Positions 1 through 37,202 of a stretch of DNA of 64,000 nucleotides are shown piece after piece; position 1 is the stretch's first letter, and every line of letters starts with the position of its first letter. Both the position numbers and the translations under genes were made by a program. This DNA comes from Lytechinus pictus (Eukaryota). The stretch covers positions 14,448,001-14,512,000 of the forward strand of contig NC_087251.1 in NCBI RefSeq assembly GCF_037042905.1. Reading direction: 5' to 3'. The notes beneath the pieces are model-generated. The model ran no database searches. It had not been told where the DNA came from and saw only the letters and a list, made by a program, of their open reading frames with translations.

Positions 1-269
1 TTCATAACTTTAATGAAACATATTGCTTAGGGCCTATGTGTTCATCACTTGTGCTCGCATATTGTCTGTTAACTTTAATGAGAGAAATAATCCTATTCAA
101 AGGGAATAAATCGCATTAAAACATTCCGTTTTTAAGTCAATTGAATTGCTCGCACTTCGAGCTTTTATCATTTTATGTAGTAACATCTTTTTCACAACTA
201 CTTAAAGTGATTGCCCCCTTTTAAGGTCTAGTGAATATAAAACATTTCCAACCCGTGCTTACGTTCGTA

Positions 270-312
270 TGTTAAGGTCTTAAAGAGGACCTGAGCTTAA
301 CGCGTAACTCGC
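270..312. repeat. Left terminal inverted repeat, 43 bp
   Basis: 43/43 reverse-complement match to 36666-36708; starts TGT. Confidence 0.95.
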
Positions 313-474
313 TCCCTAGGTTATTGAAAATGTGTCCAGTGTGTGCGCGCAGTGCCTCTGTGTTTGCATCTGTGTTGTTTGGAATGGGATGCACGCACAG
401 GATCCTCTACATGCACAAGCACACGATTGCCTTCGACATGTAAGATTTGCTCTTCATCATATGCTGCACTTTTT

Positions 475-1135
475 TACCAAGTTACTATATGTCCTAAATT
501 TCTTTTTATTTGTATTTTTAGAATGGACTTCAAACCAAAAAGGAAAAACTTATAAAGTGGTTTGTGCGTGGATATTTTACAAATTAGAATAACATGGATT
601 GAAAAGGGAAAGGCGGGGGCAATGCTTAACATATTTTCATTTGGAGGGGGGGGGGGGGGGGCAAGACATAAGGGAACGTATATTCATCTGGTTATTATAT
701 GTCTTGAATTTCTTTTATTTTTATTTTTAGAATGGACTACATACGAAAAAAAGGAGAAAAAAACTTAACCAGAAGCCTATAGAGTGTTTCGTGCGTGAAC
801 ATTTTACAAATTAGAATAACATGGATTCAAAAAGTAAAAGCTGGGGCGGCGCTTAACATATTTTTATTTGGAGGAGGGGGGGGGGGGGGTAGGCAAAGAC
901 AATAGGGTACTTATATTACCAGGTTATAATATGTCTTAAATCTCTTTTTTTAATAAGTATTTATAGAATGGACTACAAACCAAAAAAAGGAAGAAAAACT
1001 TAAGCAGAATTAATAGAGTGTATTGTGCGTGAATATTTAAAAAAATTAGAATAACATGGATTTAAAAAGTAAATCTGGGCCGGCACTTAACATATTTTCA
1101 TTTGGAGAGGGGGAGGCAATAATAAGGGTACATAG
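475..1135. repeat. Diverged tandem repeat, about 3 copies of 210-235 bp
   Basis: tttagaatggact, aattagaataacatggatt and cttaacatatttt followed by a G-run each recur three times. Confidence 0.85.
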
Positions 1136-2599
1136 TTGGTTGTTTTTGTAGTAATTTGTAAGTTGAGGAAAGCCTTTTTGAACTGATTGCTGAGATATAT
1201 ATAGGCTCTTTTTTTCCGCGAGAGAGTAGCGTTTTGGGAAAAATTCAAATCTGAAGTGTCAAAACTCGCTTCATGGTGCTATTCACTGTTGAGATAAAAG
1301 GGCATTAATTCTAATTATTGAGGTCAAATCACGACCTCAAATATTCGGATATCTTGTAATAAGACATGGAAATGAAACATTTCGAGTATTTTTTTAAATA
1401 TTAAAAAAGATGTGTACCTAACTAAGGAATTAATGCCAGCTGTAGGTTCGAGCTGATTTTGTTTCTATATAGGACCTTCTGACCTGAAAAGGAACCTGAT
1501 ATGGTCTGCATTTAGTGACTTATGAATATGATAGGGCTACATATCTCGCCAATGAAATAATGCGAGCCCGAGGCTCGAGTTGAAAGTTTGTGATATCCCA
1601 CCCCTGAAAACTGAAAATTTTAACATTTAACCTTTTAACATTTTTTTAACCAGAAATATATATAATGAACATTTGTTAAAAAATTAATTGATGCCAGCGC
1701 GAAACGCGAGGAAAAATTTGTTATTATTTCAAACTTAGATACTGGACATTCTTAACATTTTGAAAACCATAAACATGATAAGGTATACCTTACTCACTAA
1801 TAATTAATAGAGCGGGAAGCACGTGCCAAAATCAAGTGATTTTCTAACCAAAAATGTATAATTTATTTCTAAAAAAGTATATATTCGTTAGAAAAAGACA
1901 TATTTAATTTTGGAATACATCGTATTTTGGAAAATCATTAGTTTCCTGCGGCTATTATTATTATTTTTTGTGGGGGGGGGGGTAGGGGCAAGGGGGCACT
2001 TGGGGGGTCATGTGTCCCCTGCTCCAAGTACGCGCCTCCCCTGTGATATAGTGATTTCTCAATGTGTGACTAAATGATCAACACAGAACACTGAATTACC
2101 ACTTAAAATATGAATTGGGCAATAGATTATTTCTGGATTTCATTAGCTAATAGCTTAAAGGTTCCCCCAAAGCTTGCTTAGTTTAAACCATAGGTGAAAA
2201 GCATATCGCTTTCCAAATACATAAAACTCAACAGTGATTGACTTGAAGAATTATTATCTTTCTGTCTCTCCCTCTCTTTTTTTTAAAATCTTGCATCAGC
2301 TTTTTCATTTAAATTATTTTTGCACTTTTATATAATATTTATTTGTGCCTCTCATTTGTATTTACATTATTATGTAACATTGTGTAATTGTTCAATATAT
2401 GCAGTTATTCTAAGCAGTGTTGGGCTAATTATATATTGTGATTTTACAAAAAAATATAGTTATAGGCCTATTATTCGTATTTTCGGGATCTAGGGACCTT
2501 CTCCGACTTATTGGACTTAGTTATCGAATACTTAGTTAATTTTCTATACACGTTAACTTTTTGGAATTGACATTTTATTCCAATTATTCTTTGTTTATC

Positions 2600-2712
2600 A
2601 TGTATGTATGTATGTATGTATGAATGTATGTATGTATGTATGTATGTATGTATGTATGTATGCATGCATGCATGCATGCATGTATGTATGTATGTATGTA
2701 TGTGTGTATGTA
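2600..2712. repeat. (TATG)n/(CATG)n microsatellite
   Basis: Directly visible tetranucleotide repeat. Confidence 0.95.
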
Positions 2713-10954: not shown

Positions 10955-11087
10955 CAGTGGCGTACCTAGGATTTTCCACAGGGGGGGCAAAACTGTCCGC
11001 CAAAAAATTAGACAAGCAAAAAAAAAAAAAAAAAAAAAAAGGTCTTCGATCACAAATAAAGGATTTCGAACCAGAAAAAAATTGACA

Positions 11088-11132
<45 letters not shown>

Positions 11133-11921: not shown

Positions 11922-12917
11922 GGTGACAGGTGCCCTATTACCGTGCGGAAACGACTACGGGTATATAATCAAGCATAGGATTCTTACTAAGTACCTGTAC
12001 CCCAACAAACTATATATTTTTGGAAAGCTTATGAGCTGATCTACACAAAAATTTGCACTGTGGCATATTAGCTTTAGGCATAAGCAAAATATGGTCATTC
12101 AAAGTCATGACTTTAAAAATCAAGATTTTTCTCTATATGAACTTTCTATGGTTATAACTTCACAACATAGAGTGTAATTTAAGTTTTGATGGATTAATTT
12201 AATTCTCTGACTTCTTTGTGATGAATTTATGATGGATTTAAGAAATATTCAGAGTAGAATTGTAAAAATTATGGATTAAACAAGCAGTCAGATAATGAGA
12301 AATTCAGAATGGACTTTTATACACAACTCCACCTGTGGGGGTACCATGCACAAAAACTATCATTATTTTGTTGTACTCTTCAAGATACACAATTCTACAA
12401 AATTTCATGCAAATCCAATGATTAGAACTCAAGTTATTACATTTTTCATTTAAAAAACCCTCAATTTTGTATAATATCACGATAAAGAAAGGGCTATAAT
12501 ACTAATAATAACGGAAATTTGTAACGTGCCATGTCTGTCACATAGTGTATGTAACTTGAAGTCGCTGCCATATTGTGCAATACAGTAGCTCTCCCTATTT
12601 GGCCAACAGAGGGTGGTAGTCCACTTTGCTACATGGAATATCTGGGGCTTCAGCCAAAAAAAATCTGGGGAATTTCTGATTTTTTTTAAAGGCAGTATCA
12701 AAGGTTTTGGGGACAGATTTAATCACTTCCGGTGTGTAAAATACTACTTCCGGTTTGAGAATTTTATGAAAATATGTTTTAACCCCCCTCTTATTAAAAA
12801 AAGAGGTAGAATATTGAGATAAAACAAGTTGCATGATGAAGTACACACATGAAACTAGCAAAGGAGACAAAAAAATTGAAATCATTAAAAAAAAAAATTT
12901 TTAGGGCACCTGTCACC
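11922..12917. mobile_element. TTAA-flanked non-autonomous DNA transposon (Kolobok-like GG...CC termini)
   Basis: ttaa|ggtgacaggtgcccta ... tagggcacctgtcacc|ttaa, perfect 16-bp TIR. Confidence 0.85.
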
Positions 12918-14834: not shown

Positions 14835-15435
14835 TTTACCTTGGGGGCAGAGTGGATCTCTGCTTATTTCCATAAAAATGTTTTGAAGAACACGCAAAAT
14901 AAGGCAAAGTATAAAGCAAATCAATACTCCATAAAACTCCTACAATACAAAAGACATAAGCTTGACGCTAAGGTAAATATATATCACCTAAAATGCTTTA
15001 CCTTGGATCTCTGCTTAATCAAAAAAAAAAAGGTTTGAAGAACAAGCAAAATAAAGCAAAGTATAAAGCAAATCAATACTACATAAAACTACAATACAAA
15101 AGATTTACGGTAAGGTAAATATATATGACATGAAATGCTTTACCTTGCATGCAGAGTGGATTTCTGCTTATGTCCATAAAATGTTTTTAAGAACAAGCAA
15201 AATAAAGCAAAGTAAAAAGCAAATCATTACTACATAAAACTCCTACAATACAAAAGACATAAGCTTGACGCTAAGGTAAATATATATCACCTAAAATGCT
15301 TTACCTTGGATCTCTGCTTATTTCCAAAAAAAAAGGTTTGAAGAACAAGCAAAATAAAGCAAAGTACAAAGCAAATCAATACTACATAAAACTACAATAC
15401 AAAAGATTTACGGTAAGGTAAATATATATGACATA
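14835..15435. repeat. Tandem repeat, 4 x ~151 bp arranged as a ~302-bp dimer x2
   Basis: gcaaaataa(g/a)gcaaagta..aagcaaatca recurs near 14895, 15046, 15196 and 15349; copies 1/3 and 2/4 share diagnostic segments. Confidence 0.9.
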
Positions 15436-15851
15436 AAAAAAGTGTTAAGCGATATAAAAGCAAGTATGATGGTATTTCTCAGGTCTACACACCTAATGAT
15501 ATTGTACTAATATTCAACTAGAATATTTTTTTACATTTCACAAAATCTTTCAGTAAATAATGTTCATTATATCCTTATAGTATCTCATTAAAATTTGTAA
15601 TATAAGATTTTCTTGGTAACAAACCTCGGGCAGTCATTTTCAGATTAAAAAAAATAGTACCCATGTCTGCTCATCCATTTATCTGCACATGATTCAGGGA
15701 TTTTGATAAGTAAGGCAGGATTTTCAGGCTATCATATGAAATGCCCAATATTCATTAATTTGCCACAATTTTCAGTCAATTTCTTAATAAATATCTGTCC
15801 TCCTGTCTTTGAAGCATGCATACAGCTCTTGCAATTATCAAGTGCACATAC

Positions 15852-15993
15852 CCAGGGAAGAATGATATCCTTCATTATACAGCCTTGTCACAGTTTCAAG
15901 TGAATTAATCCACTGGAAATTGTCATTGGTGCCGTTCAGCTCCTCAAGTTGTAGACGAAGTTTTGACTTCCATGATGCATGGCTACGTTCAGC
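15852..15993 (-). CDS. Integrase next exon (carries the catalytic E)
   Basis: ttgttttcattttacag| then AERSHASWKSKLRLQLEELNGTNDNFQWINSLETVTRLYNEGYHSSLG |gtatgt; completes QGKAER and the W...YN...HSSLG integrase motif. Confidence 0.88.
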
Positions 15994-16690
15994 CTGTAAA
16001 ATGAAAACAAGAATTATTACAATTCATTTTGTTGCAATAATAGGAAGAAATGTGAAACATTGTTGCCTGATTTCTGACAGGTGGTTTTTAAAACCAAATT
16101 TTGGTGTCAAAAGTTGCACAAGACTTGACAGTAAAAAATCATCAAGTAACACGGTAAAACATTTTGCACAGCAGATTTATCACGTCAATTGAAATATAAT
16201 TGTAAATATACAAGGTTGGTTAGGAAAATAAATGGATTGAATTGAAAATAAAGTATGAAAATATTTGCTTGAGAATACATGTACTCTTTCACCCCATACA
16301 CGTAAATACGTCATGATATGACATATACATGTACCTGTATTGTCCCTAAAAGCTTTGAAAGGTGTAATCTCTTTCTGGCTCATGTATCAATATTGCTTGT
16401 GTGCATTCTATTCTTTTTTTTAAACACATGATGAAATATCTTCTTTCATGCAATTCTAATTCTCCTCATATCAAAACTAATAGTTTAGAAACTAAAATGT
16501 TTTTGTTTCTATTTTACACCTGTTTCCTTTAGTAGAATTACAAGAAATTTGTGATTTTTAAGTATATCATAAAGTTAAACATCATGAAGGCAAGAATCCA
16601 ATTATTATCAAATTTTCTAAATAAACATGGATTGCTGGTGCCCTGACATACCAAACAAAAAACAGAACTTTAATTATAGGATATTCTTAC

Positions 16691-17458
16691 TTTTCCTTGT
16701 GATTCTGGTTTGTAAGGTGCACTGAGGATTATTCGCACACCAAGTCGACTCATGAGCAGTCGAACAGCACCCTTAAATTCCGTCCCTCTGTCTGCTTGTA
16801 AGATTTTGGGGGGTCCAAATACATCATATACATTTCCAAGAACACCAGCTACCTCTTCTGAAGTCTTCGATTTAAGTGCCTTCAGGAACAAGTACCTGCT
16901 AAAGACATCAATCACACTCAAAATATAATTGTAATCACCCTCTCCACCTACGCTCCTCATGTCCACCAAGTCCACTTGATTCCTTTCCATTACGCTGCAC
17001 GCCCCTACAGGAATTAGTGGTGCACAGTTTTGGAATTGGGGCTTGTTCTTCTGGACCGATGGTTTCTTGTTCAACCACTTTTGGATCCCGCTCTTATGTA
17101 GACCAACAAACACCTTTTGAATTCTCTTTGTCAGTTTGAGTGCGCCATCTCCTATAGTTTCACGATAGAAGCTTTCCAATATCTCATCAATTTCATTTGT
17201 CCTGATGATGATTCTGTATGCATCATTAGTGGGAAAAACCAGTCGATCTTCCAAGTTTCTTGTAACTGGGTTGTAAATCTTCTGTATCCGTACACCTGGC
17301 CATTTTCGCAGAAATCTACTCACTCTGTGCCATTTCTGGTTTTCTTCCTTAGCAGTCTTCGTCGCCCCGTGATGTCCACTACTCAATGCATCAAACACCA
17401 GCTTGTAGGTCTCTGGATCCATCGCTGATGGGCGCCTTGACCTTTTGATGATTTTGAC
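16691..17458 (-). CDS. Integrase/transposase (rve core, Ginger/TDD/KRBA2-SCAND3 type), main exon
   Basis: ORF 16670-17422 contains ERNQVDLVDM, YILSVIDVFSRYLFL, FGPPKILQADRGTEF and SAPYKPESQGK. Polypyrimidine+AG acceptor at 17460-17459 with 12 in-frame codons before MDPETY; GTAAGA donor at 16690 in phase 0. Confidence 0.9.
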
Positions 17459-17949: not shown

Positions 17950-20900
17950 ACTAATACTTAAATCTTTGTGAAACACCCCCTGAAGAAACCCGTCTTTGTA
18001 GTCTAACCTGGCTTTAATAGGCTTTCAAGTGTGATACCCGTGCTTATGATGTAACCTGTCCTTATAGCTTAACCTCCTTTAAAGAGTTAGCTGCTTAAAA
18101 GAATAATCTTGCTTTCAGGTGTAAACTGGCTTTTAAAATGAATGCTGATCTTATCTGGGAGAGCTAGCAGTAAAAAAAGACATCACTTAACTGGTTGGAT
18201 CATGCCGAGAGGACGCGCACTACTGCGTACGTGATGTACGACTAATATTAAAATCTTTGTGAAACACCCCCTGAAGAAACCCGTCTTTGTAGTCTAACCT
18301 GGCTTTAATACGCTTTCAAGTGTGATACCCGTGCTTATGATGTAACCTGTCCTTATAGCTTAACCTCCTGTAAAGAGTTTAGCTGCTTAAAAGAATAATC
18401 TTGCTTTCAGGTGTAAACTGGCTTTTAAAATGAATGCTGATCTTATCTGGGAGAGCTAGCAGTAAAAAAAGACATCACTGAACTGGTTGGATCATGCCGA
18501 GAGGACGCGCACTACTGCATACGTGATGTACGACTAATATTAAAATCTTTGTGAAACACCCCCTGAAGAAACCCGTCTTTGTAGTCTAACCTGGCTTTAA
18601 TAGGCTTTCACGTGTGATACATGTGCTTATGATGTAACCTGTCCTTATAGCTTAACCTCCTTTAAAGAGTTAGCTGCGTAAAAGAATAATCTTGCTTTCA
18701 AGTGTAAACTGGCTTTTAAAATGTATGCTGATGTTATCTGGGAGAGCAAGCAGTAAAAAAAGACATCACTGAACTGGTTGGATCATGCCGAGAGGACGCG
18801 CACTACTGCATACGTGATGTACGACTAATATTAAAATCTTTGTGAAACACCCCCTGAAGAAACCCGTCTTTGTAGTCTAACCTGGCTTTAATAGGCTTTC
18901 ACGTGTGATACATGTGCTTATGATGTAACCTGTCCTTATAGCTTAACCTCCTTTGAAGAGTTAGCTGCGTAAAAGAATAATCTTGCTTTCAAGTGTAAAC
19001 TGGCTTTTAAAATGTATGCTGATGTTATCTGGGAGAGCAAGCAGTAAAAAAAGACATCACTGAACTGGTTGGATCATGCCAAGAGGACGCGCACTACTGC
19101 GTACGTGATGTACGACTAATACTTAAATCTTTGTGAAACACCCCCTGAAGAAACCCGTCTTTGTAGTCTAACCTGGCTTTAATAGGCTTTCAAGTGTGAT
19201 ACATGTGCTTATGATGTAACCTGTCCTTATAGCTTAACCTCCTTTAAAGAGTTAGCTGCTTAAAAGAATAATATTGCTTTCAGGTGTAAACTGGCTTTTA
19301 AAATGAATGCTGATCTTATCTGGGAGAGCGAGCAGTAAAAAAAGACATCACTGAACTGGTTGGATCATGCCGAGAGGACGCGCACTACTGCGTACGTGAT
19401 GTACGACTAATATTAAAATCTTTGTGAAACACCCCCTGAAGAAACCCGTCTTTGTAGTCTAACCTGGCTTTAATAGGCTTTCACGTGTGATACATGTGCT
19501 TATGATGTAACCTGTCCTTATAGCTTAACCTCCTTTAAAGAGTTAGCTGCGTAAAAGAATAATCTTGCTTTCAAGTGTAAACTGGCTTTTAAAATGTATG
19601 CTGATGTTATCTGGGAGAGCAAGCAGTAAAAAAAGACATCACTGAACTGGTTGGATCATGCCGAGAGGACGCGCACTACTGCATACGTGATGTACGACTA
19701 ATATTAAAATCTTTGTGAAACACCCCCTGAAGAAACCCGTCTTTGTAGTCTAACCTGGCTTTAATAGGCTTTCACGTGTGATACATGTGCTTATGATGTA
19801 ACCTGTCCTTATAGCTTAACCTCCTTTGAAGAGTTAGCTGCGTAAAAGAATAATCTTGCTTTCAAGTGTAAACTGGCTTTTAAAATGTATGCTGATGTTA
19901 TCTGGGAGAGCAAGCAGTAAAAAAAGACATCACTGAACTGGTTGGATCATGCCAAGAGGACGCGCACTACTGCGTACGTGATGTACGACTAATACTTAAA
20001 TCTTTGTGAAACACCCCCTGAAGAAACCCGTCTTTGTAGTCTAACCTGGCTTTAATAGGCTTTCAAGTGTGATACATGTGCTTATGATGTAACCTGTCCT
20101 TATAGCTTAACCTCCTTTAAAGAGTTAGCTGCTTAAAAGAATAATATTGCTTTCAGGTGTAAACTGGCTTTTAAAATGAATGCTGATCTTATCTGGGAGA
20201 GCGAGCAGTAAAAAAAGACATCACTGAACTGGTTGGATCATGCCGAGAGGACGCGCACTACTGCGTACGTGATGTACGACTAATATTAAAATCTTTGTGA
20301 AACACCCCCTGAAGAAACCCGTCTTTGTAGTCTAACCTGGCTTTAATAGGCTTTCAAGTGTGATACCCGTGCTTATGATGTAACCTGTCCTTATAGCTTA
20401 ACCTCCTTTAAAGAGTTAGCTGCTTAAAAGAATAATCTTGCTTTCAGGTGTAAACTGGCTTTTAAAATGAATGCTGATCTTATCTGGGAGAGCTAGCAGT
20501 AAAAAAAGACATCACTGAACTGGTTGGATCATGCCGAGAGGACGCGAACTGCTGCGTATGTGATGTACGACTAATATTAAAATCTTTGTGAAACACCCCC
20601 TGAAGAAACCCGTCTTTGTAGTCTAACCTGGCTTAAATAGGCTTTCAAGTGTGATACCCGTGCTTATGATGTAACCTGTCCTTATAGCTTAACCTCCTTT
20701 AAAGAGTTTAGCTGCTTAAAAGAATAATATTGCTTTCAGGTGTAAACTGGCTTTTAAAATGAATGCTGATCTTATCTGGGAGAGCTAGCAGTAAAAAAAG
20801 ACATCACTGAACTGGTTGGATCATGCCGAGAGGACGCGCACTACTGCGTACGTGATGTACGACTAATATTAAAATCTTTGTGAAACACCCCCTGAAGAAC

Positions 20901-23900
20901 CCCGTCTTTGTAGTCTAACCTGGCTTTAATAGGCTTTCAAGTGTGATACATGTGCTTATGATGTAACCTGTCCTTATAGCTTAACCTCCTTTAAAGAGTT
21001 AGCTGCTTAAAAGAATAATCTTGCTTTCAGGTGTAAACTGGCTTTTAAAATGAATGCTGATCTTATCTGGGAGAGCTAGCAGTAAAAAAGACATTACTGA
21101 ACTGGTTGGATCATGCCAAGAGGACGCGCACTACTGCGTACGTGATGTACAACTAATATTTAAATCTTTGTGAAACACCCCCTGAAGAAACCTGTCTTTG
21201 TAGTCTAACCTGGCTTTAATAGGCTTTCAAGTGTGATACCCGTGCTTATGATGTAACCTGTCCTTATAGCTTAACCTCCTTTAAAGAGTTTAGCTGCTTA
21301 AAAGAATAATCTTGCTTTCAGGTGTAAGCTGGCTTTGAAAATGAATGCTGATCTTATCTGGGAGAGCAAGCAGTAAAAAAAGACATCACTGAACTGGTTG
21401 GATCATGCCAAGAGGACGCGCACTACTGCGTACGTGATGTACGACTAATACTTAAATCTTTGTGAAACACCCCCTGAAGAAACCCGTCTTTGTAGTCTAA
21501 CCTGGCTTTAATAGGCTTTCAAGTGTGATACCCGTGCTTATGATGTAACCTGTCCTTATAGCTTAACCTCCTTTAAAGAGTTTAGCTGCTTAAAAGAATA
21601 ATCTTGCTTTCAGGTGTAAACTGGCTTTTAAAATGAATGCTGATCTTATCTGGGAGAGCTAGCATTAAAAAAGACATCACTGAACTGGTTGGATCATGCC
21701 GAGAGGACGCGAACTGCTGCGTACGTGATGTACGACTAATATTAAAATCTTTGTGAAACACCCCCTGAAGAAACCCGTCTTTGTAGTCTAACCTGGCTTT
21801 AATAGGCTTTCACGTGTGATACATGTGCTTATGATGTAACCTGTCCTTATAGCTTAACCTCCTTTAAAGAGTTGGCTGCTTAAAAGAATAATCTTGCTTT
21901 CAGGTGTAAACTGGCTTTTAAAATGTATGCTGATCTTATCTGGGAGAGCAAGCAGTAAAAAAAGACATCACTGAACTGGTTGGATCATGCCAAGAGGACG
22001 CGCACTACTGCGTACGTGATGTACGACTAATACTTAAATCTTTGTGAAACACCCCCTGAAGAAACCCGTCTTTGTAGTCTAACCTGGCTTTAATAGGCTT
22101 TCAAGTGTGATACCCGTGCTTATGATGTAACCTGTCCTTATAGCTTAACCTCCTTTAAAGAGTTAGCTGCTTAAAAGAATAATCTTGCTTTCAGGTGTAA
22201 ACTGGCTTTTAAAATGAATGCTGATCTTATCTGGGAGAGCTAGCAGTAAAAAAAGACATCACCGAACTGGTTGGATCATGCCGAGAGGACGCGCACTACT
22301 GCGTACGTAATGTACGACTAATATTAAAATCTTTGTGAAACACCCCCTGAAGAAACCCGTCTTTGTAGTCTAACCTGGCTTTAATAGGCTTTCAAGTGTG
22401 ATACCCGTGCTTATGATGTAACCTGTCCTTATATCTTAACCTCCTTTAAAGAGTTTAGCTGCTTAAAAGAATAATCTTGCTTTCAGGTGTAAACTGGCTT
22501 TTAAAATGAATGCTGATCTTATCTGGGAGAGCTAGCAGTAAAAAAAGACATCACTGAACTGGTTGGATCATGCCGAGAGGACGCGCACTACTGCATACGT
22601 GATGTACGACTAATATTAAAATCTTTGTGAAACACCCCCTGAAGAAACCCGTCTTTGTAGTCTAACCTGGCTTTAATAGGCTTTCACGTGTGATACATGT
22701 GCTTATGATGTAACCTGTCCTTATAGCTTAACCTCCTTTAAAGAGTTAGCTGCGTAAAAGAATAATCTTGCTTTCAAGTGTAAACTGGCTTTTAAAATGT
22801 ATGCTGATGTTATCTGGGAGAGCAAGCAGTAAAAAAAGACATCACTGATCTGGTTGGATCATGCCGAGAGGACGCGCACTACTGCATACGTGATGTACGA
22901 CTAATATTAAAATCTTTGTGAAACACCCCCTGAAGAAACCCGTCTTTGTAGTCTAACCTGGCTTTAATAGGCTTTCAAGTGTGATACATGTGCTTATGAT
23001 GTAACCTGTCCTTATAGCTTAACCTCCTTTAAAGAGTTAGCTGCTTAAAAGAATAATATTGCTTTCAGGTGTAAACTGGCTTTTAAAATGAATGCTGATC
23101 TTATCTGGGAGAGCGAGCAGTAAAAAAAGACATCACTGAACTGGTTGGATCATGCCGAGAGGACGCGCACTACTGCGTACGTGATGTACGACTAATATTA
23201 AAATCTTTGTGAAACACCCCCTGAAGAAACCCGTCTTTGTAGTCTAACCTGGCTTTAATAGGCTTTCAAGTGTGATACCCGTGCTTATGATGTAACCTGT
23301 CCTTATAGCTTAACCTCCTTTAAAGAGTTAGCTGCTTAAAAGAATAATCTTGCTTTCAGGTGTAAACTGGCTTTTAAAATGAATGCTGATCTTATCTGGG
23401 AGAGCTAGCAGTAAAAAAAGACATCACTGAACTGGTTGGATCATGCCGAGAGGACGCGAACTGCTGCGTACGTGATGTACGACTAATATTAAAATCTTTG
23501 TGAAACACCCCCTGAAGAAACCCGTCTTTGTAGTCTAACCTGGCTTTAATAGGCTTTCAAGTGTGATACCCGTGCTTATGATGTAACCTGTCCTTATAGC
23601 TTAACCTCCTTTAAAGAGTTTAGCTGCTTAAAAGAATAATATTGCTTTCAGGTGTAAACTGGCTTTTAAAATGAATGCTGATCTTATCTGGGAGAGCTAG
23701 CAGTAAAAAAAGACATCACTGAACTGGTTGGATCATGCCGAGAGGACGCGCACTACTGCGTACGTGATGTACGACTAATATTAAAATCTTTGTGAAACAC
23801 CCCCTGAAGAACCCCGTCTTTGTAGTCTAACCTGGCTTTAATAGGCTTTCAAGTGTGATACATGTGCTTATGATGTAACCTGTCCTTATAGCTTAACCTC

Positions 23901-26900
23901 CTTTAAAGAGTTAGCTGCTTAAAAGAATAATCTTGCTTTCAGGTGTAAACTGGCTTTTAAAATGAATGCTGATCTTATCTGGGAGAGCTAACAGTAAAAA
24001 AGACATTACTGAACTGGTTGGATCATGCCAAGAGGACGCGCACTACTGCGTACGTGATGTACAACTAATATTTAAATCTTTGTTAAACACCCCCTGAAGA
24101 AACCCGTCTTTGTAGTCTAACCTGGCTTTAATAGGCTTTCACGTTGATACCTGTGCTTATGATGTAACCTGTCCTTATAGCTTACCTCCTTTAAAGAGTT
24201 AGCTGCTTAAAAGAATTATCTTGCTTTCAGGTGTAAACTGGCCTTTAAAATGAATACTGATCTTATCTGGGAGAGCTAGCAGTAAAAAAGACATCACTGA
24301 ACTGGTTGGATCATGCCGAGAGGACGCGCACTACTGTGACGTGATGTACGACTAATACTTAAATCTTTGTGAAACACCCCCTGAAGAAACCCGTCTTTGT
24401 AGTCTAACCTGGCTTTAATAGGCTTTCAAGTGTGATACATGTGCTTATGATGTAACCTGTCCTTATAGCTTAACCTCCTTTAAAGAGTTTAGCTGCTTAA
24501 AAGAATAATCTTGCTTTCAGGTGTAAACTGGCTTTTAAAATGAATGCTGATCTTATCTGGGAGAGCTAGCAGTAAAAAAGACATCACTGAACTGGTTGGA
24601 TCATGCCAAGAGGACGCGCACTACTGCGTATGTGATGTACAACTAATATTTAAATCTTTGTTAAACACCCCCTGAAGAAACCCGTCTTTGTAGTCTAACC
24701 TGGCTTTAATAGGCTTTCACGTGTGATACATGTGCTTATGATGTAACCTGTCCTTATATCTTAACCTTCTTTAAAGAGTTTAGCTGCTTAAAAGAATAAT
24801 CTTGCTTTCAAGTGTAAACTGGCTTTTAAAATGTATGCTGATCTTATCTGGGAGAGCAAGCAGTAAAAAAAGACATCACTGAACTGGTTGGATCATGCCA
24901 AGAGGACGCGCACTACTGCGTACGTGATGTACGACTAATACTTAAATCTTTGTGAAACACCCCCTGAAGAAACCCGTCTTTGTAGTCTAACCTGGCTTTA
25001 ATAGGCTTTCAAGTGTGATACCCGTGCTTATGATGTAACCTGTCCTTATAGCTTAACCTCCTTTAAAGAGTTAGCTGCTTAAAAGAATAATCTTGCTTTC
25101 AGGTGTAAACTGGCTTTTAAAATGAATGCTGATCTTATCTGGGAGAGCTAGCAGTAAAAAAAGACATCACTAAACTGGTTGGATCATGCCGAGAGGACGC
25201 GCACTACTGCGTACGTGATGTACGACTAATATTAAAATCTTTGTGAAACACCCCCTGAAGAAACCCGTCTTTGTAGTCTAACCTGGCTTTAATAGGCTTT
25301 CAAGTGTGATACCCGTGCTTATGATGTAACCTGTCCTTATATCTTAACCTCCTTTAAAGAGTTTAGCTGCTTAAAAGAATAATCTTGCTTTCAGGTGTAA
25401 ACTGGCTTTTAAAATGAATGCTGATCTTATCTGGGAGAGCTAGCAGTAAAAAAAGACATCACTGAACTGGTTGGATCATGCCGAGAGGACGCGCACTACT
25501 GCATACGTGATGTACGACTAATATTAAAATCTTTGTGAAACACCCCCTGAAGAAACCCGTCTTTGTAGTCTAACCTGGCTTTAATAGGCTTTCACGTGTG
25601 ATACATGTGCTTATGATGTAACCTGTCCTTATAGCTTAACCTCCTTTAAAGAGTTAGCTGCGTAAAAGAATAATCTTGCTTTCAAGTGTAAACTGGCTTT
25701 TAAAATGTATGCTGATGTTATCTGGGAGAGCAAGCAGTAAAAAAAGACATCACTGATCTGGTTGGATCATGCCGAGAGGACGCGCACTACTGCATACGTG
25801 ATGTACGACTAATATTAAAATCTTTGTGAAACACCCCCTGAAGAAACCCGTCTTTGTAGTCTAACCTGGCTTTAATAGGCTTTCACGTGTGATACATGTG
25901 CTTATGATGTAACCTGTCCTTATAGCTTAACCTCCTTTGAAGAGTTAGCTGCGTAAAAGAATAATCTTGCTTTCAAGTGTAAACTGGCTTTTAAAATGTA
26001 TGCTGATGTTATCTGGGAGAGCAAGCAGTAAAAAAAGACATCACTGAACTGGTTGGATCATGCCAAGAGGACGCGCACTACTGCGTACGTGATGTACGAC
26101 TAATACTTAAATCTTTGTGAAACACCCCCTGAAGAAACCCGTCTTTGTAGTCTAACCTGGCTTTAATAGGCTTTCAAGTGTGATACCCGTGCTTATGATG
26201 TAACCTGTCCTTATAGCTTAACCTCCTTTAAAGAGTTTAGCTGCTTAAAAGAATAATCTTGCTTTCAGGTGTAAACTGGCTTTTAAAATGAATGCTGATC
26301 TTATCTGGGAGAGCGAGCAGTAAAAAAAGACATCACTGAACTGGTTGGATCATGCCGAGAGGACGCGCACTACTGCGTACGTGATGTACGACTAATATTA
26401 AAATCTTTGTGAAACACCCCCTGAAGAAACCCGTCTTTGTAGTCTAACCTGGCTTTAATAGGCTTTCAAGTGTGATACCCGTGCTTATGATGTAACCTGT
26501 CCTTATAGCTTAACCTCCTTTAAAGAGTTAGCTGCTTAAAAGAATAATCTTGCTTTCAGGTGTAAACTGGCTTTTAAAATGAATGCTGATCTTATCTGGG
26601 AGAGCTAGCAGTAAAAAAAGACATCACTGAACTGGTTGGATCATGCCGAGAGGACGCGAACTGCTGCGTACGTGATGTACGACTAATATTAAAATCTTTG
26701 TGAAACACCCCCTGAAGAAACCCGTCTTTGTAGTCTAACCTGGCTTTAATAGGCTTTCAAGTGTGATACATGTGCTTATGATGTAACCTGTCCTTATAGC
26801 TTAACCTCCTTTAAAGAGTTAGCTGCTTAAAAGAATAATATTGCTTTCAGGTGTAAACTGGCTTTTAAAATGAATGCTGATCTTATCTGGGAGAGCGAGC

Positions 26901-29535
26901 AGTAAAAAAAGACATCACTGAACTGGTTGGATCATGCCGAGAGGACGCGCACTACTGCGTACGTGATGTACGACTAATATTAAAATCTTTGTGAAACACC
27001 CCCTGAAGAAACCCGTCTTTGTAGTCTAACCTGGCTTTAATAGGCTTTCAAGTGTGATACCCGTGCTTATGATGTAACCTGTCCTTATAGCTTAACCTCC
27101 TTTAAAGAGTTAGCTGCTTAAAAGAATAATCTTGCTTTCAGGTGTAAACTGGCTTTTAAAATGAATGCTGATCTTATCTGGGAGAGCTAGCAGTAAAAAA
27201 AGACATCACTGAACTGGTTGGATCATGCCGAGAGGACGCGAACTGCTGCGTACGTGATGTACGACTAATATTAAAATCTTTGTGAAACACCCCCTGAAGA
27301 AACCCGTCTTTGTAGTCTAACCTGGCTTTAATAGGCTTTCAAGTGTGATACCCGTGCTTATGATGTAACCTGTCCTTATAGCTTAACCTCCTTTAAAGAG
27401 TTTAGCTGCTTAAAAGAATAATATTGCTTTCAGGTGTAAACTGGCTTTTAAAATGAATGCTGATCTTATCTGGGAGAGCTAGCAGTAAAAAAAGACATCA
27501 CTGAACTGGTTGGATCATGCCGAGAGGACGCGCACTACTGCGTACGTGATGTACGACTAATATTAAAATCTTTGTGAAACACCCCCTGAAGAACCCCGTC
27601 TTTGTAGTCTAACCTGGCTTTAATAGGCTTTCAAGTGTGATACATGTGCTTATGATGTAACCTGTCCTTATAGCTTAACCTCCTTTAAAGAGTTAGCTGC
27701 TTAAAAGAATAATCTTGCTTTCAGGTGTAAACTGGCTTTTAAAATGAATGCTGATCTTATCTGGGAGAGCTAACAGTAAAAAAGACATTACTGAACTGGT
27801 TGGATCATGCCAAGAGGACGCGCACTACTGCGTACGTGATGTACAACTAATATTTAAATCTTTGTTAAACACCCCCTGAAGAAACCCGTCTTTGTAGTCT
27901 AACCTGGCTTTAATAGGCTTTCACGTTGATACCTGTGCTTATGATGTAACCTGTCCTTATAGCTTACCTCCTTTAAAGAGTTAGCTGCTTAAAAGAATTA
28001 TCTTGCTTTCAGGTGTAAACTGGCCTTTAAAATGAATACTGATCTTATCTGGGAGAGCTAGCAGTAAAAAAGACATCACTGAACTGGTTGGATCATGCCG
28101 AGAGGACGCGCACTACTGTGACGTGATGTACGACTAATACTTAAATCTTTGTGAAACACCCCCTGAAGAAACCCGTCTTTGTAGTCTAACCTGGCTTTAA
28201 TAGGCTTTCAAGTGTGATACATGTGCTTATGATGTAACCTGTCCTTATAGCTTAACCTCCTTTAAAGAGTTTAGCTGCTTAAAAGAATAATCTTGCTTTC
28301 AGGTGTAAACTGGCTTTTAAAATGAATGCTGATCTTATCTGGGAGAGCTAGCAGTAAAAAAGACATCACTGAACTGGTTGGATCATGCCAAGAGGACGCG
28401 CACTACTGCGTATGTGATGTACAACTAATATTTAAATCTTTGTTAAACACCCCCTGAAGAAACCCGTCTTTGTAGTCTAACCTGGCTTTAATAGGCTTTC
28501 ACGTGTGATACATGTGCTTATGATGTAACCTGTCCTTATATCTTAACCTTCTTTAAAGAGTTTAGCTGCTTAAAAGAATAATCTTGCTTTCAGGTGTAAA
28601 CTGGCTTTTAAAATGAATGCTGATCTTATCTGGGAGAGCTAGCAGTAAAAAAGACATCACTGAACTGGTTGGATCATGCCAAGAGGACGCGCACTACTGC
28701 GTACGTGATGTACAACTAATATTTAAATCTTTGTGAAACATCCCCTGAAGAAACCCGTCTTTGTAGTCTAACCTGGCTTTAATAGGCTTTCACGTTGATA
28801 CCTGTGCTTATGATGTAACCTGTCCTTATAGCTTAACCTCCTTTAAAGAGTTAGCTGCTTAAAAGAATTATCTTGCTTTCAGGTGTAAACTGGCCTTTAA
28901 AATGAATACTGATCTTATCTGGGAAAGCTAGCAGTAAAAAAGACATCACTGAACTGGTTGGATCATGCCGAGAGGACGCGCACTACTGTGACGTGATGTA
29001 CGACTAATACTTAAATCTTTGTGAAACACCCCCTGAAGAAACCCGTCTTTGTAGTCTAACCTGGCTTTAATAGGCTTTCACGTGTGATACATGTGCTTAT
29101 GATGTAACCTGTCCTTATAGCTTAACCTCCTTTAAAGAGTTTAGCTGCTTAAAAGAATAATCTTGCTTTCAGGTGTAAACTGGCTTTTAAAATGAATGCT
29201 GATCTTATCTGGGAGAGCTAGCAGTAAAAAAGACATCACTGAACTGGTTTGATCATGCCGAGAGGACGCGCACTACTGCGTACGTGATGTACGACTAATA
29301 CTTAAATCTTTGTGAAACATCCCCTGAAGAAACCTGTCCTTGTAGTCTAACCTGGCTTTAATTGGCTTTCAAGCTCATGGTGTAACCTGTCCTTATAGCT
29401 TAACCTGCTTAAACAGTAAGCTACATAAAAAAGGAACCTTGCTTTCAAGTGTAACCTAGCTTTTAAAATCGTATCCTAGCTTTTAAAATCGTAACCTAGC
29501 TTTTAAAAGCGTATCCTGATCTTATCTGGGCCTAG
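17950..29535. repeat. Satellite array, ~40 copies of a 290-292-bp unit
   Basis: aatctttgtgaaacaccccctgaagaaacccgtc at 17961, 18252, 18544 and onward; copies differ by only a few bases; last copy decays into a 20-bp sub-repeat (gta(a/t)cctagcttttaaaa) at ~29450-29515. Confidence 0.98.
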
Positions 29536-29564
29536 TAAAAATTGAATCATGCATTGCAACTCAC

Positions 29565-34513: not shown

Positions 34514-34669
34514 ATAATAGAACCAGAAGTGAATCAACTTGACAGTCAGCATGCATGTATTAAACAATGTTGAGGATAGAACTTGCAACCCAAACACCAT
34601 AACACAGTTAATCAATGGGCATGGCACAAGTGCAGTTTCGCACCGGTCGATTACCACTACCAGTACTAC

Positions 34670-35275
34670 CTCAGGCGATGTTCATGCAGGCTCCACTCCA
34701 ATTCACTACCGCTACACTACGCTACACCTACCCGAACATCGGGACAGTGAACCAATTCGGATATACCAAGTCACAAAAGGTGGGATCAAATGGTGGTTTA
34801 TTGTAAAAAATCTAGGAAAAATATGTAACGAGGGATATGAATGACTTAATATCTTACTCTACACCCATACAATATTTCACTCCGTGTCCATCCTCCAGTT
34901 ATACTCAAAATTGGTGATTTTGGGCCAGTATCTTTTTCCTCACAGTCGCTGATCGATCACGATCGCATGCAATTTTTTTAAATCGGCCGTGAATAATACG
35001 CGTGAGGAAAAAGATACTGGCCCAAAATCACCAATGTTGAGGATAACCGTAGGCGTAGGATGGACACGGAGTGAAATACGGTGTAGAGTAAGATATTAAG
35101 TCATTCATATCCCTCGTTACATATTTTTCCTAGATTTTTTACAATAAACCACCATTTGATCCCACCTTTTGTGACTCGGTATATCCGAATTGGTTCACTG
35201 TCCCGATGTTCGGGTAGGTGGAGCGTAGTGTAGCAGTAGTTAAGTGGAGTGGAGCCTGCACGAACATCACCTGAG
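34670..35275. repeat. Long palindrome, ~270-bp arms, ~60-bp spacer
   Basis: cctacccgaacatcgggacagtgaaccaattcggatatacc...gggccagtatctttttcctcac is mirrored by gtgaggaaaaagatactggccc...ggtatatccgaattggttcactgtcccgatgttcgggtagg. Confidence 0.95.
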
Positions 35276-35454
35276 TTATACCACTACCAGTACCAATACA
35301 ACTTACAAGCATACCTCACCACAACCATAACACTAACATGACTAACTGTTCACAAATGTCCTAGCAAGTCACATTTCAAGGTCAATATACCCACCGCTTT
35401 TCTAAATATCGCGATCAGGAAAGGCTAAATTTCAATATATTATGGCTTCGCTTG

Positions 35455-36086
35455 CATACCATAAGGGCACTAGTATTCAACCCGTTTGGAGAGTTTCCTC
35501 AAATTTATAGAATATATAGAATTTACCTGAATTTCAGACCCGTCTTATTTCCAAGAGCAAATGCTGGTTATTCTTTTTCCGTTATATTTTTCTTCAACCA
35601 GTTGACTGTGTGCGCGGGCGATCGAATTATACGGCGACGGATTTTGGTACTAGTATTCAACCCGTCGGCACTAATATTCAACCTAGCGATGAAAGATGGA
35701 CCTGTCTCTCGATCTGCTCTTGTCCCATCCGACTATGGACTAGACCATTTGAGATGAGACCAAACAGGGAATTAATCAAAGCCAGAGACTTACATAGATC
35801 TAGATCTAATTTAGCAATCTAAACCCTTTTGAGATTTGCTATCAATCCTCACTAGGTTGAATACTAGTAGGCCTACCATTCAGTGCAAAAGGCCATCGCC
35901 GCATAATTCGATCCTCCGCGCATACAGTCGACAGATTGACAAAGAAAATATCGACAACAGATTACCCTGGAATTAACAAAGGTATGGAATTAAGATAAAT
36001 TCCCTATTTCTAAATATTTTGGGGAATATGTCAAAATCTTTGAATTATGCCGGGTTGAATACTAGTAGGCTCTACCCATACGGTAT
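35455..36086. repeat. Diverged inverted repeat with reiterated (t/c)actagtattcaacc motif
   Basis: Motif forward at ~35470, 35648 and 35669 and reversed (ggttgaatactagta) at ~35855 and 36053; gactgtgtgcgcgg..gatcgaattat mirrored at ~35900-35929. Confidence 0.8.
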
Positions 36087-36665
36087 ATAGTCATGCAGAT
36101 CAGTCATGCATCTATGCCTATGGCTGCTTGGATTCGCCATGCATGCACCACAATGTTGATATGGACTGATGTTAGCGACCAAAACTTCAAAAAGACTCCC
36201 CTGCGGCATGCAAGCAGTTAATTTGCAGGATGTTCACATGATTTGGTTGCTAACTTCAGTCCACATATTACCCTAGTCCCGTGTCTATACTGCAGTGTGT
36301 CTATGGCCAAATACACGGTAAGCGCCCTGGGCTCCCGCCAGCGTAGCGGGCGGGAGCTCCCTGGGTTACCTGGGCCTAACTTAGAGCAGCCAAGACTGGC
36401 AAGAGTATTCAAGGCAATTACATACGAATAACGAATGGAATGCGGTAGACCATAGATTGTATAAATTCACGCGCCGAATTATATTACATAAACTGAAATT
36501 GTATTATTCTTTCTGTATTAATACTCACATGTTTTATGGAATATTGATGGTACCGTCGGGGAACAGTGTACTACTGAACTGAAGTGATTTTCTCGCACAA
36601 ACTCCGCATTCGGTGCGCGCGCGTACATTATAATTGCAATTAACACTTTATCGCGAACTTACCCG

Positions 36666-36708
36666 GCGAGTTACGCGTTAAGCTCAGGTCCTCTTTAAGA
36701 CCTTAACA
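36666..36708. repeat. Right terminal inverted repeat, 43 bp
   Basis: 43/43 reverse-complement match to 270-312; ends ACA. Confidence 0.95.
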
Positions 36709-37202
36709 TTCGTATTAGTGGATCGGTGAGATATATCTTGCTCATGAATTCCTTAAAACCTCAAAATGTCCCTTTATTCTGGTCTTAATATAAAAAAGAT
36801 TCAGCTAGCGCGTCGCGCTCGCATCATTTGGTTTGTGAAATACGTATGATCTTAATGAATTCCTACAAAAAAGGCCTTTGCGCTCGCAATATTTCATTAG
36901 AGAGATACGTATGTTATACGTACTATATGTTCATGATTACAGTGACTTCATGTTTTTAGGTGTAATTCTAACAAAACTCTGCACCCGCTTGGCGCTTGCA
37001 TTAGATGACTATGATGAGATATGTATGCTCTTCATGAATTCCAAAAAAATTAGTTCTTAAATGTCCCTTTTTTAGGTCTGAATATAATTTTTTTTTCAGC
37101 TCGCGCTTAATTCTCACTCGCGTTATTTGATCAGTGACATACATATCCTTTTAATGGCTCAGTCCTTAAATGTATTTATTAGGTCAGAATACATTGCGCG
37201 CC

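What the first reader, a model, noticed from the sequence alone, without database searches (positions are those of the whole stretch)
264..36714. 36-kb giant transposon with TGT...ACA ends, 43-bp TIRs and a 6-bp TSD, apparently driven by a retroviral-type integrase
Seen: a perfect 43-bp inverted repeat 36.4 kb apart, each copy abutted by TTCGTA, enclosing an rve integrase gene. Known: Ginger/TDD elements use such integrases and TGT ends but are typically a few kb with 4-5-bp TSDs; Polintons/Mavericks have 6-bp TSDs and this size but long TIRs and polymerase/capsid genes, none of which I see. Inference: an unusually large, recently inserted (zero TIR/TSD mismatches) Ginger-like element, or an undescribed lineage, that moves tens of kb of satellite and host-like DNA.
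Basis: partly seen in the sequence, partly recalled or inferred. Interest (0 to 1): 0.93.

Follow-up and report, generated by a model that had tools for sequence, protein, structure and literature searches.

The report
Giant integrase-type DNA transposon, confirmed
A 36-kb stretch of this animal genome is a genuine, very recently moved DNA transposon that carries an expressed retrovirus-like integrase gene and an 11.5-kb satellite array, which makes it several times larger than any described relative.

Summary
A perfect 43-bp inverted repeat (TGT...ACA) lies at window 270-312 and 36666-36708, with TTCGTA on both sides. The genome holds a second giant copy (42,495 bp, TSD GACGTT) that is collinear with it. 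The two differ by 27 substitutions in 23,935 non-satellite columns and have unrelated flanks. There is also a 1,315-bp internal-deletion derivative (TSD GACGTA) and a wider family, median about 8 kb, with 6-bp TSDs. The flanking hexamer has CG at its centre in 30 of 33 ends (nACGTn). Three paralogous copies of the host repeat show the empty site with one hexamer.

The only recognisable gene is an rve integrase, present in just the two giants. Transcript contigs of two runs show it spliced (697-nt GT-AG intron). The product is 295 aa with D151, D211 and E246 (DD35E), and its model resembles retroviral integrases. It has no HHCC zinc finger. It also lacks the C-terminal and OTU parts that its 700-880-aa homologues have.

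The giant size comes from a family-internal 291-bp unit expanded to 11.5-18 kb, plus nested repeats. No host genes were found inside. That the integrase drives transposition is plausible but not shown. The features fit none of Ginger1, Ginger2 or IS3EU/GingerRoot cleanly. I call it a new variant of a known kind, of moderate to high interest.

The parts
264..269 (.). left target-site duplication, TTCGTA
   Evidence: Paralogous empty sites carry a single hexamer (TTCGCA) at this point.
270..312 (+). terminal inverted repeat of the 'A' end (43 bp, begins TGTTA)
270..1125 (+). A-end region kept in the 1,315-bp deletion derivative on C5 (first 856 bp, 98.7% identical); candidate cis-acting end
562..1113 (.). 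subterminal tandem repeat, 227-bp unit, 2.4 copies
   Evidence: internal repeats are also seen.
11922..12917 (.). nested 996-bp MITE with TIR GGTGACAGGTGCCC and TTAA duplication; absent from the C15 copy, so it inserted after the giants separated
   Evidence: a transcribed contig of X1 covers 11918-12921.
14835..15438. two diverged units of about 303 bp, placed (by position) as the counterparts of the roughly 75%-identical satellite-like units upstream of the C2 and C17 arrays
15838..15993 (-). integrase CDS exon 2, stop codon included; it encodes the catalytic E246. The transcript runs on to at least 15405
15994..16690 (-). 697-nt GT-AG intron of the integrase gene
   Evidence: the joint 15992|16690 is present in contigs of runs X1 and X5. 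Splice sites were read.
16691..17422 (-). integrase CDS exon 1 (244 codons from the ATG): N-terminal helical domain plus D151 and D211
17950..29469 (.). satellite array, 291-bp unit, 39.7 copies, 96% matches
   Evidence: About 18.1 kb in the C15 copy; shorter arrays in the older C2 and C17 copies.
35457..36088 (.). nested copy of an abundant repeat of about 620 bp (2,847 first-look candidates in the genome)
36251..36708 (-). B-end region kept in the C5 deletion derivative (last 458 bp, 99.6% identical)
36666..36708 (-). terminal inverted repeat of the 'B' end (43 bp)
36709..36714 (.). right target-site duplication, TTCGTA

Best explanation
Window 270-36708 is one intact copy of a TIR-bounded DNA transposon. 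Its family has TGTTA...TAACA ends, an invariant outer 16 bp, and TIRs that are 43 bp and perfect in this subfamily. Insertion goes into nACGTn hexamers with a 6-bp staggered cut.

Shown: the whole unit of more than 24 kb of non-satellite DNA, together with its satellite array, was mobilised very recently. This gave the C7 and C15 copies. A 1.3-kb internal-deletion derivative was mobilised as well.

Inferred: the transposase is the element's own integrase-type DDE enzyme. This is a spliced, expressed 295-aa protein with an HHCC-less helical N-terminal domain and a DD35E RNase-H-like core, from a clade whose full-length members are rve+OTU proteins. It would bind the TGT ends, expose 3'-OH CA ends and join them 6 bp apart across the CG-centred target, as retroviral and Ginger-type integrases do. 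Either this protein acts alone, or a full-length relative supplies the missing C-terminal functions.

The giant size is secondary. A 291-bp family-internal unit expanded into an 11.5-18-kb tandem array, and other repeats nested inside. It is not captured host genes.
For: Transposition as a unit:
- The 43-mer occurs at 8 places. These make three complete elements with different perfect 6-bp TSDs: C7 TTCGTA, C15 GACGTT and C5 GACGTA.
- C7 and C15 are collinear, with 27 substitutions and 18 gap openings in 23,935 non-satellite columns.
- Their flanks share no similarity.
- Each copy has a private nested MITE.
- The empty site is seen in 3 of 3 fetched paralogues of the host repeat, each with a single hexamer.

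Family:
- A ends and B ends pair up on 18 further contig places. Sizes run from 3,034 to 15,746 bp, median about 7,960 bp.
- One of these was verified by sequence: 7,956 bp, TSD CACGTC.
- The flanking hexamer has CG at positions 3-4 in 30 of 33 distinct ends and ACGT at positions 2-5 in 23 of 33.

Integrase:
- Pfam rve, E 2e-12. It is the only Pfam hit among 120 ORFs.
- Only two near-identical copies exist, both inside the giants.
- Spliced contigs are present in runs X1 and X5.
- D151, D211 and E246 are intact with 35-residue spacing.
- The AlphaFold model has pLDDT 86.3. Its best PDB matches are PFV, RSV and HIV integrases, at E 1e-11.
- Homologues at 56-70% identity end at the same point in the alignment, at ...SQGKV. 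I take this to be the same intron position.
- TG..CA ends and 4-6-bp staggers are the known signature of this enzyme class (PMC2836005 and PMC10045372, passages read).
Against: - The gene lacks everything beyond profile position 298 of 826 in its rve+OTU homologues, that is, the SH3-like C-terminal region and OTU. Nothing else in the 64-kb window matches that profile. Retroviral integrases need their C-terminal domain; that statement is from general knowledge, not from a call.
- No other family member examined carries the gene: 31 loci, 102.9 kb, with no profile hit. These include a complete 7,956-bp element and the 96%-identical C17 copy next to its satellite array. No integrase hit falls inside any paired element, although only 145 of 703 candidates were scored there.
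- Raw RNA runs X9 and X10 have depth 0 over exon 1 (about 6% of each run was read).
- No excision footprint, polymorphic empty allele or transposition assay is available.
- The 6-bp TSD disagrees with Ginger1 (4 bp) and Ginger2 (4-5 bp).
- The 5' part of the transcript (366 nt of the X5 contig) was not placed on the window.
Confidence: 0.62

Rival explanations
1. The element is a real giant transposon, but the integrase is a truncated passenger or relic. The family, giants included, is non-autonomous and is moved in trans. The mover could be a full-length rve+OTU integrase encoded elsewhere (for example the intact 799-aa ORF on C14) or an unidentified transposase.
For: - The gene stops at 295 aa and has no C-terminal or OTU region.
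- It is present in only 2 of the 21 or more paired elements and is absent from the 96%-identical C17 copy.
- An intact 799-aa rve+OTU paralogue (37% identity) exists on C14, without TIRs within 8.7 kb.
- The 8-kb relatives have no coding capacity, yet they have clean TSDs.
Against: - The catalytic triad is intact, and the gene is spliced and expressed.
- The two copies differ by one residue.
- Homologues at 56-70% identity keep the same exon end, which points to a maintained gene lineage and not to a random fragment.
- The paralogues' surroundings share nothing with these ends.
- No other transposase was seen in the element.
Confidence: 0.3
2. It is a degenerate Polinton/Maverick. The 6-bp TSD, rve integrase and size of tens of kb would fit, with the polymerase and capsid genes lost.
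For: The 6-bp TSD, the HHCC-less rve integrase and the 36-42 kb size resemble Polintons (PMC10045372 and PMC6839031, passages read).
Against: - No pPolB, capsid, ATPase or protease: 119 of 120 ORFs have no Pfam hit.
- The ends are TG..CA, not AG..CT, and the TIR is 43 bp.
- The relatives are non-coding elements of about 8 kb.
- Integrase homologues carry OTU, not Polinton features.
- A 1.3-kb deletion derivative transposes.
Confidence: 0.03
3. It is a segmental duplication or assembly artefact whose borders happen to lie at two copies of a short repeat.
For: None specific. Only two giant copies exist.
Against: - The borders fall exactly at the TIR ends, with different 6-bp duplications.
- The flanks are unrelated.
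- The A and B ends are distinct and correctly oriented in all three elements.
- Each copy has a private nested MITE and a different array length.
- Paralogous empty sites exist.
Confidence: 0.01

Closest known systems
Ginger1 DNA transposons (Bao, Kapitonov and Jurka 2010, PMC2836005; abstract, sections 5-6 and passages read)
   Same: TGTNR termini. TIRs in the 40-270-bp range. Intron-containing integrase-type transposase gene. Homologues of this integrase carry a C-terminal OTU domain, as many Ginger1 transposases do. The target is CG-centred (Ginger1: CCGG or CCGT).
   Different: The TSD is 6 bp, not 4. There is no H2C2 zinc finger. This copy has no OTU and no GPY/F region. Size is 36-42 kb against 2.6-7.1 kb.
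Ginger2/TDD DNA transposons and their derivatives KRBA2 and SCAND3 (PMC2836005 section 6; PMC3575427 passages)
   Same: TGTNR termini. A palindromic 6-bp target preference (RTATAY in Ginger2, nACGTn here). NCBI names two 35-36% homologues 'KRBA2-like' and 'SCAND3-like'.
   Different: Ginger2 makes 4-bp TSDs (TDD: 5 bp), prefers AT-rich targets, has an H2C2 finger and measures 2.8-6.7 kb. No genuine KRBA2 or SCAND3 sequence was retrieved for comparison.
IS3EU/GingerRoot superfamily (PMC6839031; PMC10045372; passages read)
   Same: 6-bp TSD. Integrase-related DDE transposase without HHCC, YPYY or GPY motifs. Occasional TG..CA ends. Fairly large elements (3.9-12.9 kb). Homologues reported in corals, oyster and fish.
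   Different: Its usual termini are TA..TA and its TIRs are 100-150 bp. No sequence-specific target was reported, only GC-richness. OTU is not mentioned in the GingerRoot paper (0 occurrences). Phylogenetic placement was not tested here.
Polinton/Maverick
   Same: 6-bp TSD, rve integrase, size of tens of kb.
   Different: No polymerase, capsid, ATPase or protease genes. Different termini. Short TIRs.
Other giant cut-and-paste elements, such as Teratorn (piggyBac plus herpesvirus, 41-182 kb) and 16-20-kb CACTA elements (PMC6431247, passages read)
   Same: A DDE enzyme with short TIRs moves tens of kb.
   Different: There the cargo is viral or extra genes and the transposase superfamily differs. 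Here the cargo is an expanded internal satellite plus nested repeats.

Membership tests
Ginger1 | TGTNR termini with TIRs of about 40-270 bp | tested here: met
   The ends are TGTTA...TAACA with a 43-bp perfect TIR.
Ginger1 | 4-bp TSD at CCGG or CCGT | tested here: not met
   The TSD is 6 bp in 4 of 4 elements whose two flanks were read. The target is nACGTn.
Ginger1 | H2C2 zinc finger (with YPYY) N-terminal to the DDE core | tested here: not met
   The window protein has no H..H..C..C pattern. Among 194 retrieved proteins, only two distant Gypsy-type ones (P0017, P0193) have the pattern N-terminal to the core. No PF17921 hit on P0001 or P0004. YPYY was not examined separately.
Ginger1 | GPY/F motif and a C-terminal OTU or Ulp1 domain | tested here: not met
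   Nothing beyond profile position 298 of 826 is present in the window. OTU is present in the 700-880-aa homologues but not in this gene.
Ginger2/TDD | 4-bp (TDD: 5-bp) TSD within AT-rich RTATAY | tested here: not met
   6-bp TSD. The hexamer has CG at its centre in 30 of 33 ends.
Ginger2/TDD | H2C2 zinc finger plus DDE core, clustering with Ginger2, KRBA2 and SCAND3 | tested here: inconclusive
   The zinc finger is absent. Two homologues bear NCBI '-like' names. No bona fide reference sequence could be brought in, so no tree was made.
IS3EU/GingerRoot | 6-bp TSD | tested here: met
IS3EU/GingerRoot | integrase-related DDE transposase without HHCC, YPYY or GPY | tested here: met
   DD35E is present and HHCC is absent. 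The C-terminal motifs cannot be present in a 295-aa product.
IS3EU/GingerRoot | TA..TA termini (occasionally TG..CA) and TIRs of 100-150 bp | tested here: inconclusive
   The ends are TG..CA, the minority type. The TIR is 43 bp here and only 16 bp perfect in the relatives.
IS3EU/GingerRoot | transposase falls in the IS3EU/GingerRoot clade | not testable with these tools
Polinton/Maverick | protein-primed DNA polymerase B, capsid, ATPase and protease genes | tested here: not met
   The only Pfam hit among 120 ORFs is rve.
Polinton/Maverick | 6-bp TSD | tested here: met

The most novel reading that the evidence does not exclude
The HHCC-less rve(+OTU) integrases that are widespread in marine animals define an undescribed superfamily-level lineage of DNA transposons. 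Its marks would be TGT..ACA ends, 6-bp TSDs and strict nACGTn targeting. Within it, a minimal 295-aa 'N-terminal domain plus core' integrase would suffice to move more than 40 kb, and so would seed whole satellite arrays at new chromosomal sites.
Probability: 0.2. Interest if true: 0.75.

Novelty: new variant of a known kind. Interest (0 to 1): 0.6.

Why it matters
It would be by far the largest integrase-type (Ginger-like) cut-and-paste element on record. The sizes I read were 2.6-7.1 kb for Ginger1, 2.8-6.7 kb for Ginger2 and up to 12.9 kb for GingerRoot. The copies are young enough (about 0.1% divergence) that activity may be ongoing.

It also shows directly how a satellite can arise inside a transposon and then be carried as a block of 10 kb or more to another chromosome. 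This bears on how satellite arrays spread.

The combination of features (6-bp TSD, strict CG-centred palindromic target, HHCC-less integrase, OTU in the relatives) cuts across the current definitions of Ginger1, Ginger2 and IS3EU/GingerRoot. The natural 1.3-kb derivative and the compact 295-aa enzyme give a ready-made pair for testing large-cargo transposition.

Tried and rejected
- Polinton reading: rejected, because no viral-type genes are present.
- Segmental duplication or assembly artefact: rejected.
- TIRs around the paralogous integrases: the C14, C8 and C7:14.79M loci share nothing with these ends. No inverted repeat brackets the 799-aa C14 ORF within 8.7 kb.
- The one JGI metagenome relative that was found (L078; 1 of 31 pattern matches confirmed) has no bracketing inverted repeat among the 25 longest pairs. 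A BLAST of its left against its right part gave no output before the script stopped on the empty result.
- Further exons (C-terminal domain, OTU): a profile of 11 homologues run over all six frames of the window found only exons 1 and 2.
- Sequencing-run index: no RNA holder listed. No DNA run was available, so the empty allele could not be sought in other individuals. The left junction was not informative in the laid runs.
- Earlier findings of this scan: three look-ups, nothing found.
So I do not know whether the larger relatives encode a transposase.
- ARAGORN finds no tRNA gene in 1-37000, despite tRNA-like letters in reads at about 5500.
- The third protein search (P0050) returned no genuine vertebrate KRBA2, SCAND3 or GIN1 to compare with.
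- The supplementary alignment of PMC10045372 (Data S3), which holds reference transposase domains, was not opened, because outside sequences could not be used in the tools.
Full report
OBSERVATION

The left end reads ...ACG TTCGTA | TGTTAAGGTCTTAAAGAGGACCTGAGCTTAACGCGTAACTCGC... from window 264. The right end is the exact reverse complement, ending at 36708 and followed by TTCGTA. The repeat finder reports the pair as 70 nt at 84% (pair I4), so weaker complementarity continues beyond the 43 perfect bases.

In the 812-Mb genome the 43-mer, with up to 3 mismatches, occurs at 8 places, against 0 for the reversed control. The first 16 bases occur 43 times against 1 for the control.

IT IS ONE TRANSPOSON THAT MOVED AS A UNIT

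Beyond the 43 bp the two ends differ. I call the window's left end 'A' and its right end 'B'. The 8 places make up the following:
- The window's pair: 36,439 bp, TSD TTCGTA.
- A pair on contig C15: 42,495 bp, TSD GACGTT.
- A pair on C5: 1,315 bp, TSD GACGTA.
- Two solo B ends, on C2 and C17.

The C15 element is collinear with the window's over its whole length. Outside the satellite the two differ by 27 substitutions and 18 gap openings in 23,935 aligned columns. Their flanks share no similarity.

Each copy has a private nested insertion. The window copy has a 996-bp TTAA-flanked MITE at 11922-12917, and C15 shows the empty TTAA there. The C15 copy has a 452-bp MITE that is empty in the window.

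The C5 element is a plain internal-deletion derivative. It consists of the first 856 bp of the A end (98.7% identical) joined to the last 458 bp of the B end (99.6% identical).

The window's insertion sits in a copy of an abundant dispersed repeat (2,014 and 1,133 first-look candidates for the left and right flank). In 3 of 3 paralogous copies that I fetched, the left and right flank sequences are contiguous and share a single hexamer, TTCGCA. This is a paralogous empty site, and it shows that the 6 bp is a true target-site duplication.

THE FAMILY

The first 200-290 bp of the A end has relatives at 83-90% and at about 75% identity. In these relatives only the outer 16 bp and the inner 11 bp of the TIR are kept.

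I paired A-end and B-end coordinates that lie on the same contig in compatible orientation. This gives 18 further elements:
- 3,034; 3,813; 4,325 and 4,865 bp
- 7,359; 7,776; 7,901; 7,926; 7,956 and 7,962 bp
- 8,127; 8,734; 8,761; 8,882 and 9,345 bp
- 13,996; 15,457 and 15,746 bp

The median is about 7,960 bp. These sizes are inferred from coordinates only, with one exception. The C13 element was read in full: 7,956 bp, TSD CACGTC, imperfect TIR. It has no recognisable coding sequence: its few ORFs of 100 aa or more look low-complexity, and it gives no hit to the integrase profile. It shares only the first 3.3 kb or so and the last 157 bp with the giant. One A end on C8 could pair with a B end 29 or 39 kb away; I did not resolve this. 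The two giants are therefore more than twice the size of any other securely paired member.

Over 33 distinct ends, the hexamer next to the TGT has A at position 2 in 26, C at position 3 in 31, G at position 4 in 30 and T at position 5 in 27. CG is central in 30 of 33 and ACGT in 23 of 33. This is a strong palindromic target preference, nACGTn, in a genome of about 35% G+C.

WHY IT IS SO LARGE

The window copy holds an 11,520-bp array of a 291-bp unit. The C15 copy holds about 18.1 kb of the same unit. The rest of each copy is about 24.4-24.9 kb.

The same unit forms arrays of about 3.3 kb and 1.8 kb in the older C17 and C2 copies, whose B ends are 96% identical to the window's. It also occurs as 1-3 units at about 75% identity inside distant relatives of 9.7-15.7 kb (the places fall inside elements paired). 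So the satellite is a family-internal sequence that expanded. It is not captured DNA.

The remainder of the interior includes nested repeats:
- the TTAA MITE;
- a repeat of about 620 bp with 2,847 first-look candidates;
- a very highly transcribed repeat at about 5400-5700.

It also includes sequence shared with the 8-kb relatives. Of 120 ORFs of 55 aa or more outside the array, 119 have no Pfam hit at the threshold used (one further ORF gave a sub-threshold hit that I disregard). I found no evidence for host-gene cargo.

THE INTEGRASE

The 264-aa ORF at 16670-17464 (minus strand) is an rve domain (E 2e-12). The reading frame ends at ...PESQGK followed by GTAAGA. After ...TTTTACAG at 15994 it resumes as AERSH....

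Contigs of runs X1 (depth 74) and X5 (depth 32) join 15992 to 16690. This removes 697 nt with GT..AG on the minus strand, while the intron itself has depth 3-10 in X1. The gene is therefore transcribed and spliced in samples of two studies. Both contigs read on from exon 2 to 15405 and 15536 with no further joint. The product is thus 295 aa and ends ...HSSLGMCT.

D151, D211 and E246 are intact, with the canonical 35-residue D-to-E spacing, and the E lies in exon 2.

An AlphaFold model of the exon-1 product was made with 30 aligned sequences and has mean pLDDT 86.3. It shows helices, a small sheet, a helical bundle and then the RNase-H-like core. Its best PDB matches are prototype foamy virus integrase in intasomes (E 1.1e-11, 212 aligned columns), followed by RSV, visna virus, HIV and SIV integrases. 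'Retroviral-type integrase' is therefore correct.

The genome has only two near-identical copies of this gene, both inside the giants. Their gene regions differ at 3 of 2,301 bases, and one of these changes T214 to M. The next-best matches in the genome are 37-43% identical paralogues that lie elsewhere.

WHAT THE INTEGRASE LACKS

Its longer homologues are 700-880-aa proteins with rve plus an OTU cysteine-protease domain. A profile of 11 such proteins matches the window only at exons 1 and 2, at profile positions 5-298 of 826. The SH3-like C-terminal region and OTU are therefore absent from the element.

No member of the family has an HHCC zinc finger. Of the 194 retrieved proteins, only two distant Gypsy-type ones show the pattern N-terminal to the core.

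Homologues at 70%, 56% and 69% identity (P0020-P0022) end at the same ...SQGKV point. The intron position, and so a gene lineage, appears to be conserved beyond this genome.

The family is widespread in corals, a sea anemone, a hemichordate, molluscs and a fish. NCBI often names its members 'KRBA2-like' or 'SCAND3-like'.

Against autonomy:
- No profile hit occurs in 31 loci (102.9 kb) of relatives.
- The C17 copy has unrelated sequence where the giants have the gene.
- Raw RNA runs X9 and X10 show depth 0 over exon 1.

MECHANISM

Shown: staggered 6-bp target cleavage at nACGTn; precise TGT...ACA ends; recent mobility of a full unit of at least 24 kb (most likely more than 35 kb) and of a 1.3-kb derivative.

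Inferred: a DDE integrase-type enzyme processes the CA-3' ends and joins them 6 bp apart. The element's own 295-aa protein is the obvious candidate. It may need a full-length rve+OTU relative to help it, or such a relative may replace it. I cannot say whether the second copy arose by replicative transposition or by cut-and-paste followed by repair.

COMPARISON WITH KNOWN FAMILIES

- Ginger1 has TGTNR ends, 40-270-bp TIRs, introns, OTU or Ulp1 domains and CCGG/CCGT targets. It makes 4-bp TSDs, has H2C2, YPYY and GPY/F motifs, and measures 2.6-7.1 kb (PMC2836005).
- Ginger2 has TGTNR ends and a palindromic 6-bp target preference. It makes 4-bp TSDs (TDD: 5 bp) and has an H2C2 finger (PMC2836005 section 6).
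- IS3EU/GingerRoot makes 6-bp TSDs, lacks HHCC, YPYY and GPY, sometimes ends TG..CA, reaches 12.9 kb and has homologues in coral, oyster and fish. It usually ends TA..TA and has 100-150-bp TIRs (PMC6839031, PMC10045372).

PMC6839031 gives 6 bp as the Ginger2 TSD. This disagrees with PMC2836005 and PMC10045372, which give 4 or 5 bp.

The element fits none of the three cleanly. I could not make the deciding tree, because reference transposases could not be brought into the tools. I therefore rate it a new variant of a known kind (integrase-type TIR transposons). There is roughly a one-in-five chance that it marks a distinct lineage.

VERDICT

Interest 0.6.

Noticed in passing
window 4785-5980 (peak 5383-5980): A dispersed repeat with very high RNA depth: about 180 reads deep in X9 and contig depth above 14,000 in X1 and X5. 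Loose read ends contain tRNA-like letters (GGTTCGAATCC), which suggests a tRNA-derived SINE nested in the element. ARAGORN calls no tRNA there.
   Followed up: partly
window 13755-15548: In the raw stranded RNA runs X9 and X10 this stretch has depth 3-7 with the first mate on the + strand only, while the integrase exons upstream have depth 0. This is either an independent minus-strand transcript or reads from related copies.
   Followed up: no
window 17458-17463 and beyond: Both spliced contigs stop matching at 17463, just past a polypyrimidine tract and AG. The X5 contig has 366 more letters that lie nowhere contiguous on the window. The gene seems to have an unplaced 5' exon and promoter.
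   Followed up: partly
L016 with L075 and L076 (G000:C14:1128738-1137466): An intact 799-aa rve+OTU ORF, 37% identical to the window's integrase, with an acidic repetitive tail. No inverted repeat brackets it within 8.7 kb. It is either a candidate autonomous relative with distant ends or a domesticated gene.
   Followed up: partly
window 37562-38966: Just outside the element lies a structure of about 1.4 kb with long nested inverted repeats (206 nt at 91%, 54 nt at 98%, 37 nt at 100%). It looks like a separate foldback or MITE-like element (pairs I2, I3, I5, I12, I14, I20).
   Followed up: no
window 34302-35278: A cluster of inverted repeats inside the B side of the element (199 nt at 96%, 52 nt at 92%, 52 nt at 90%). 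These are probably nested palindromic MITEs (pairs I1, I6, I7, I10).
   Followed up: no
window 1-269 and 36709-37000: The insertion site lies in a dispersed repeat with over a thousand first-look candidates in the genome, at about 72-88% identity.
   Followed up: partly
G000:C8:25731459-25770742: An A-type end (73% identical) lies with two B-type ends 29 and 39 kb downstream and with satellite-like units between them. This may be another very large family member, or two elements side by side.
   Followed up: no
window 640-662, 1982 and 11239-11260: Long poly-G/poly-C tracts produce many spurious 'opposite strand' joints in the RNA reads. These are artefacts of homopolymers, not rearrangements.
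   Followed up: no
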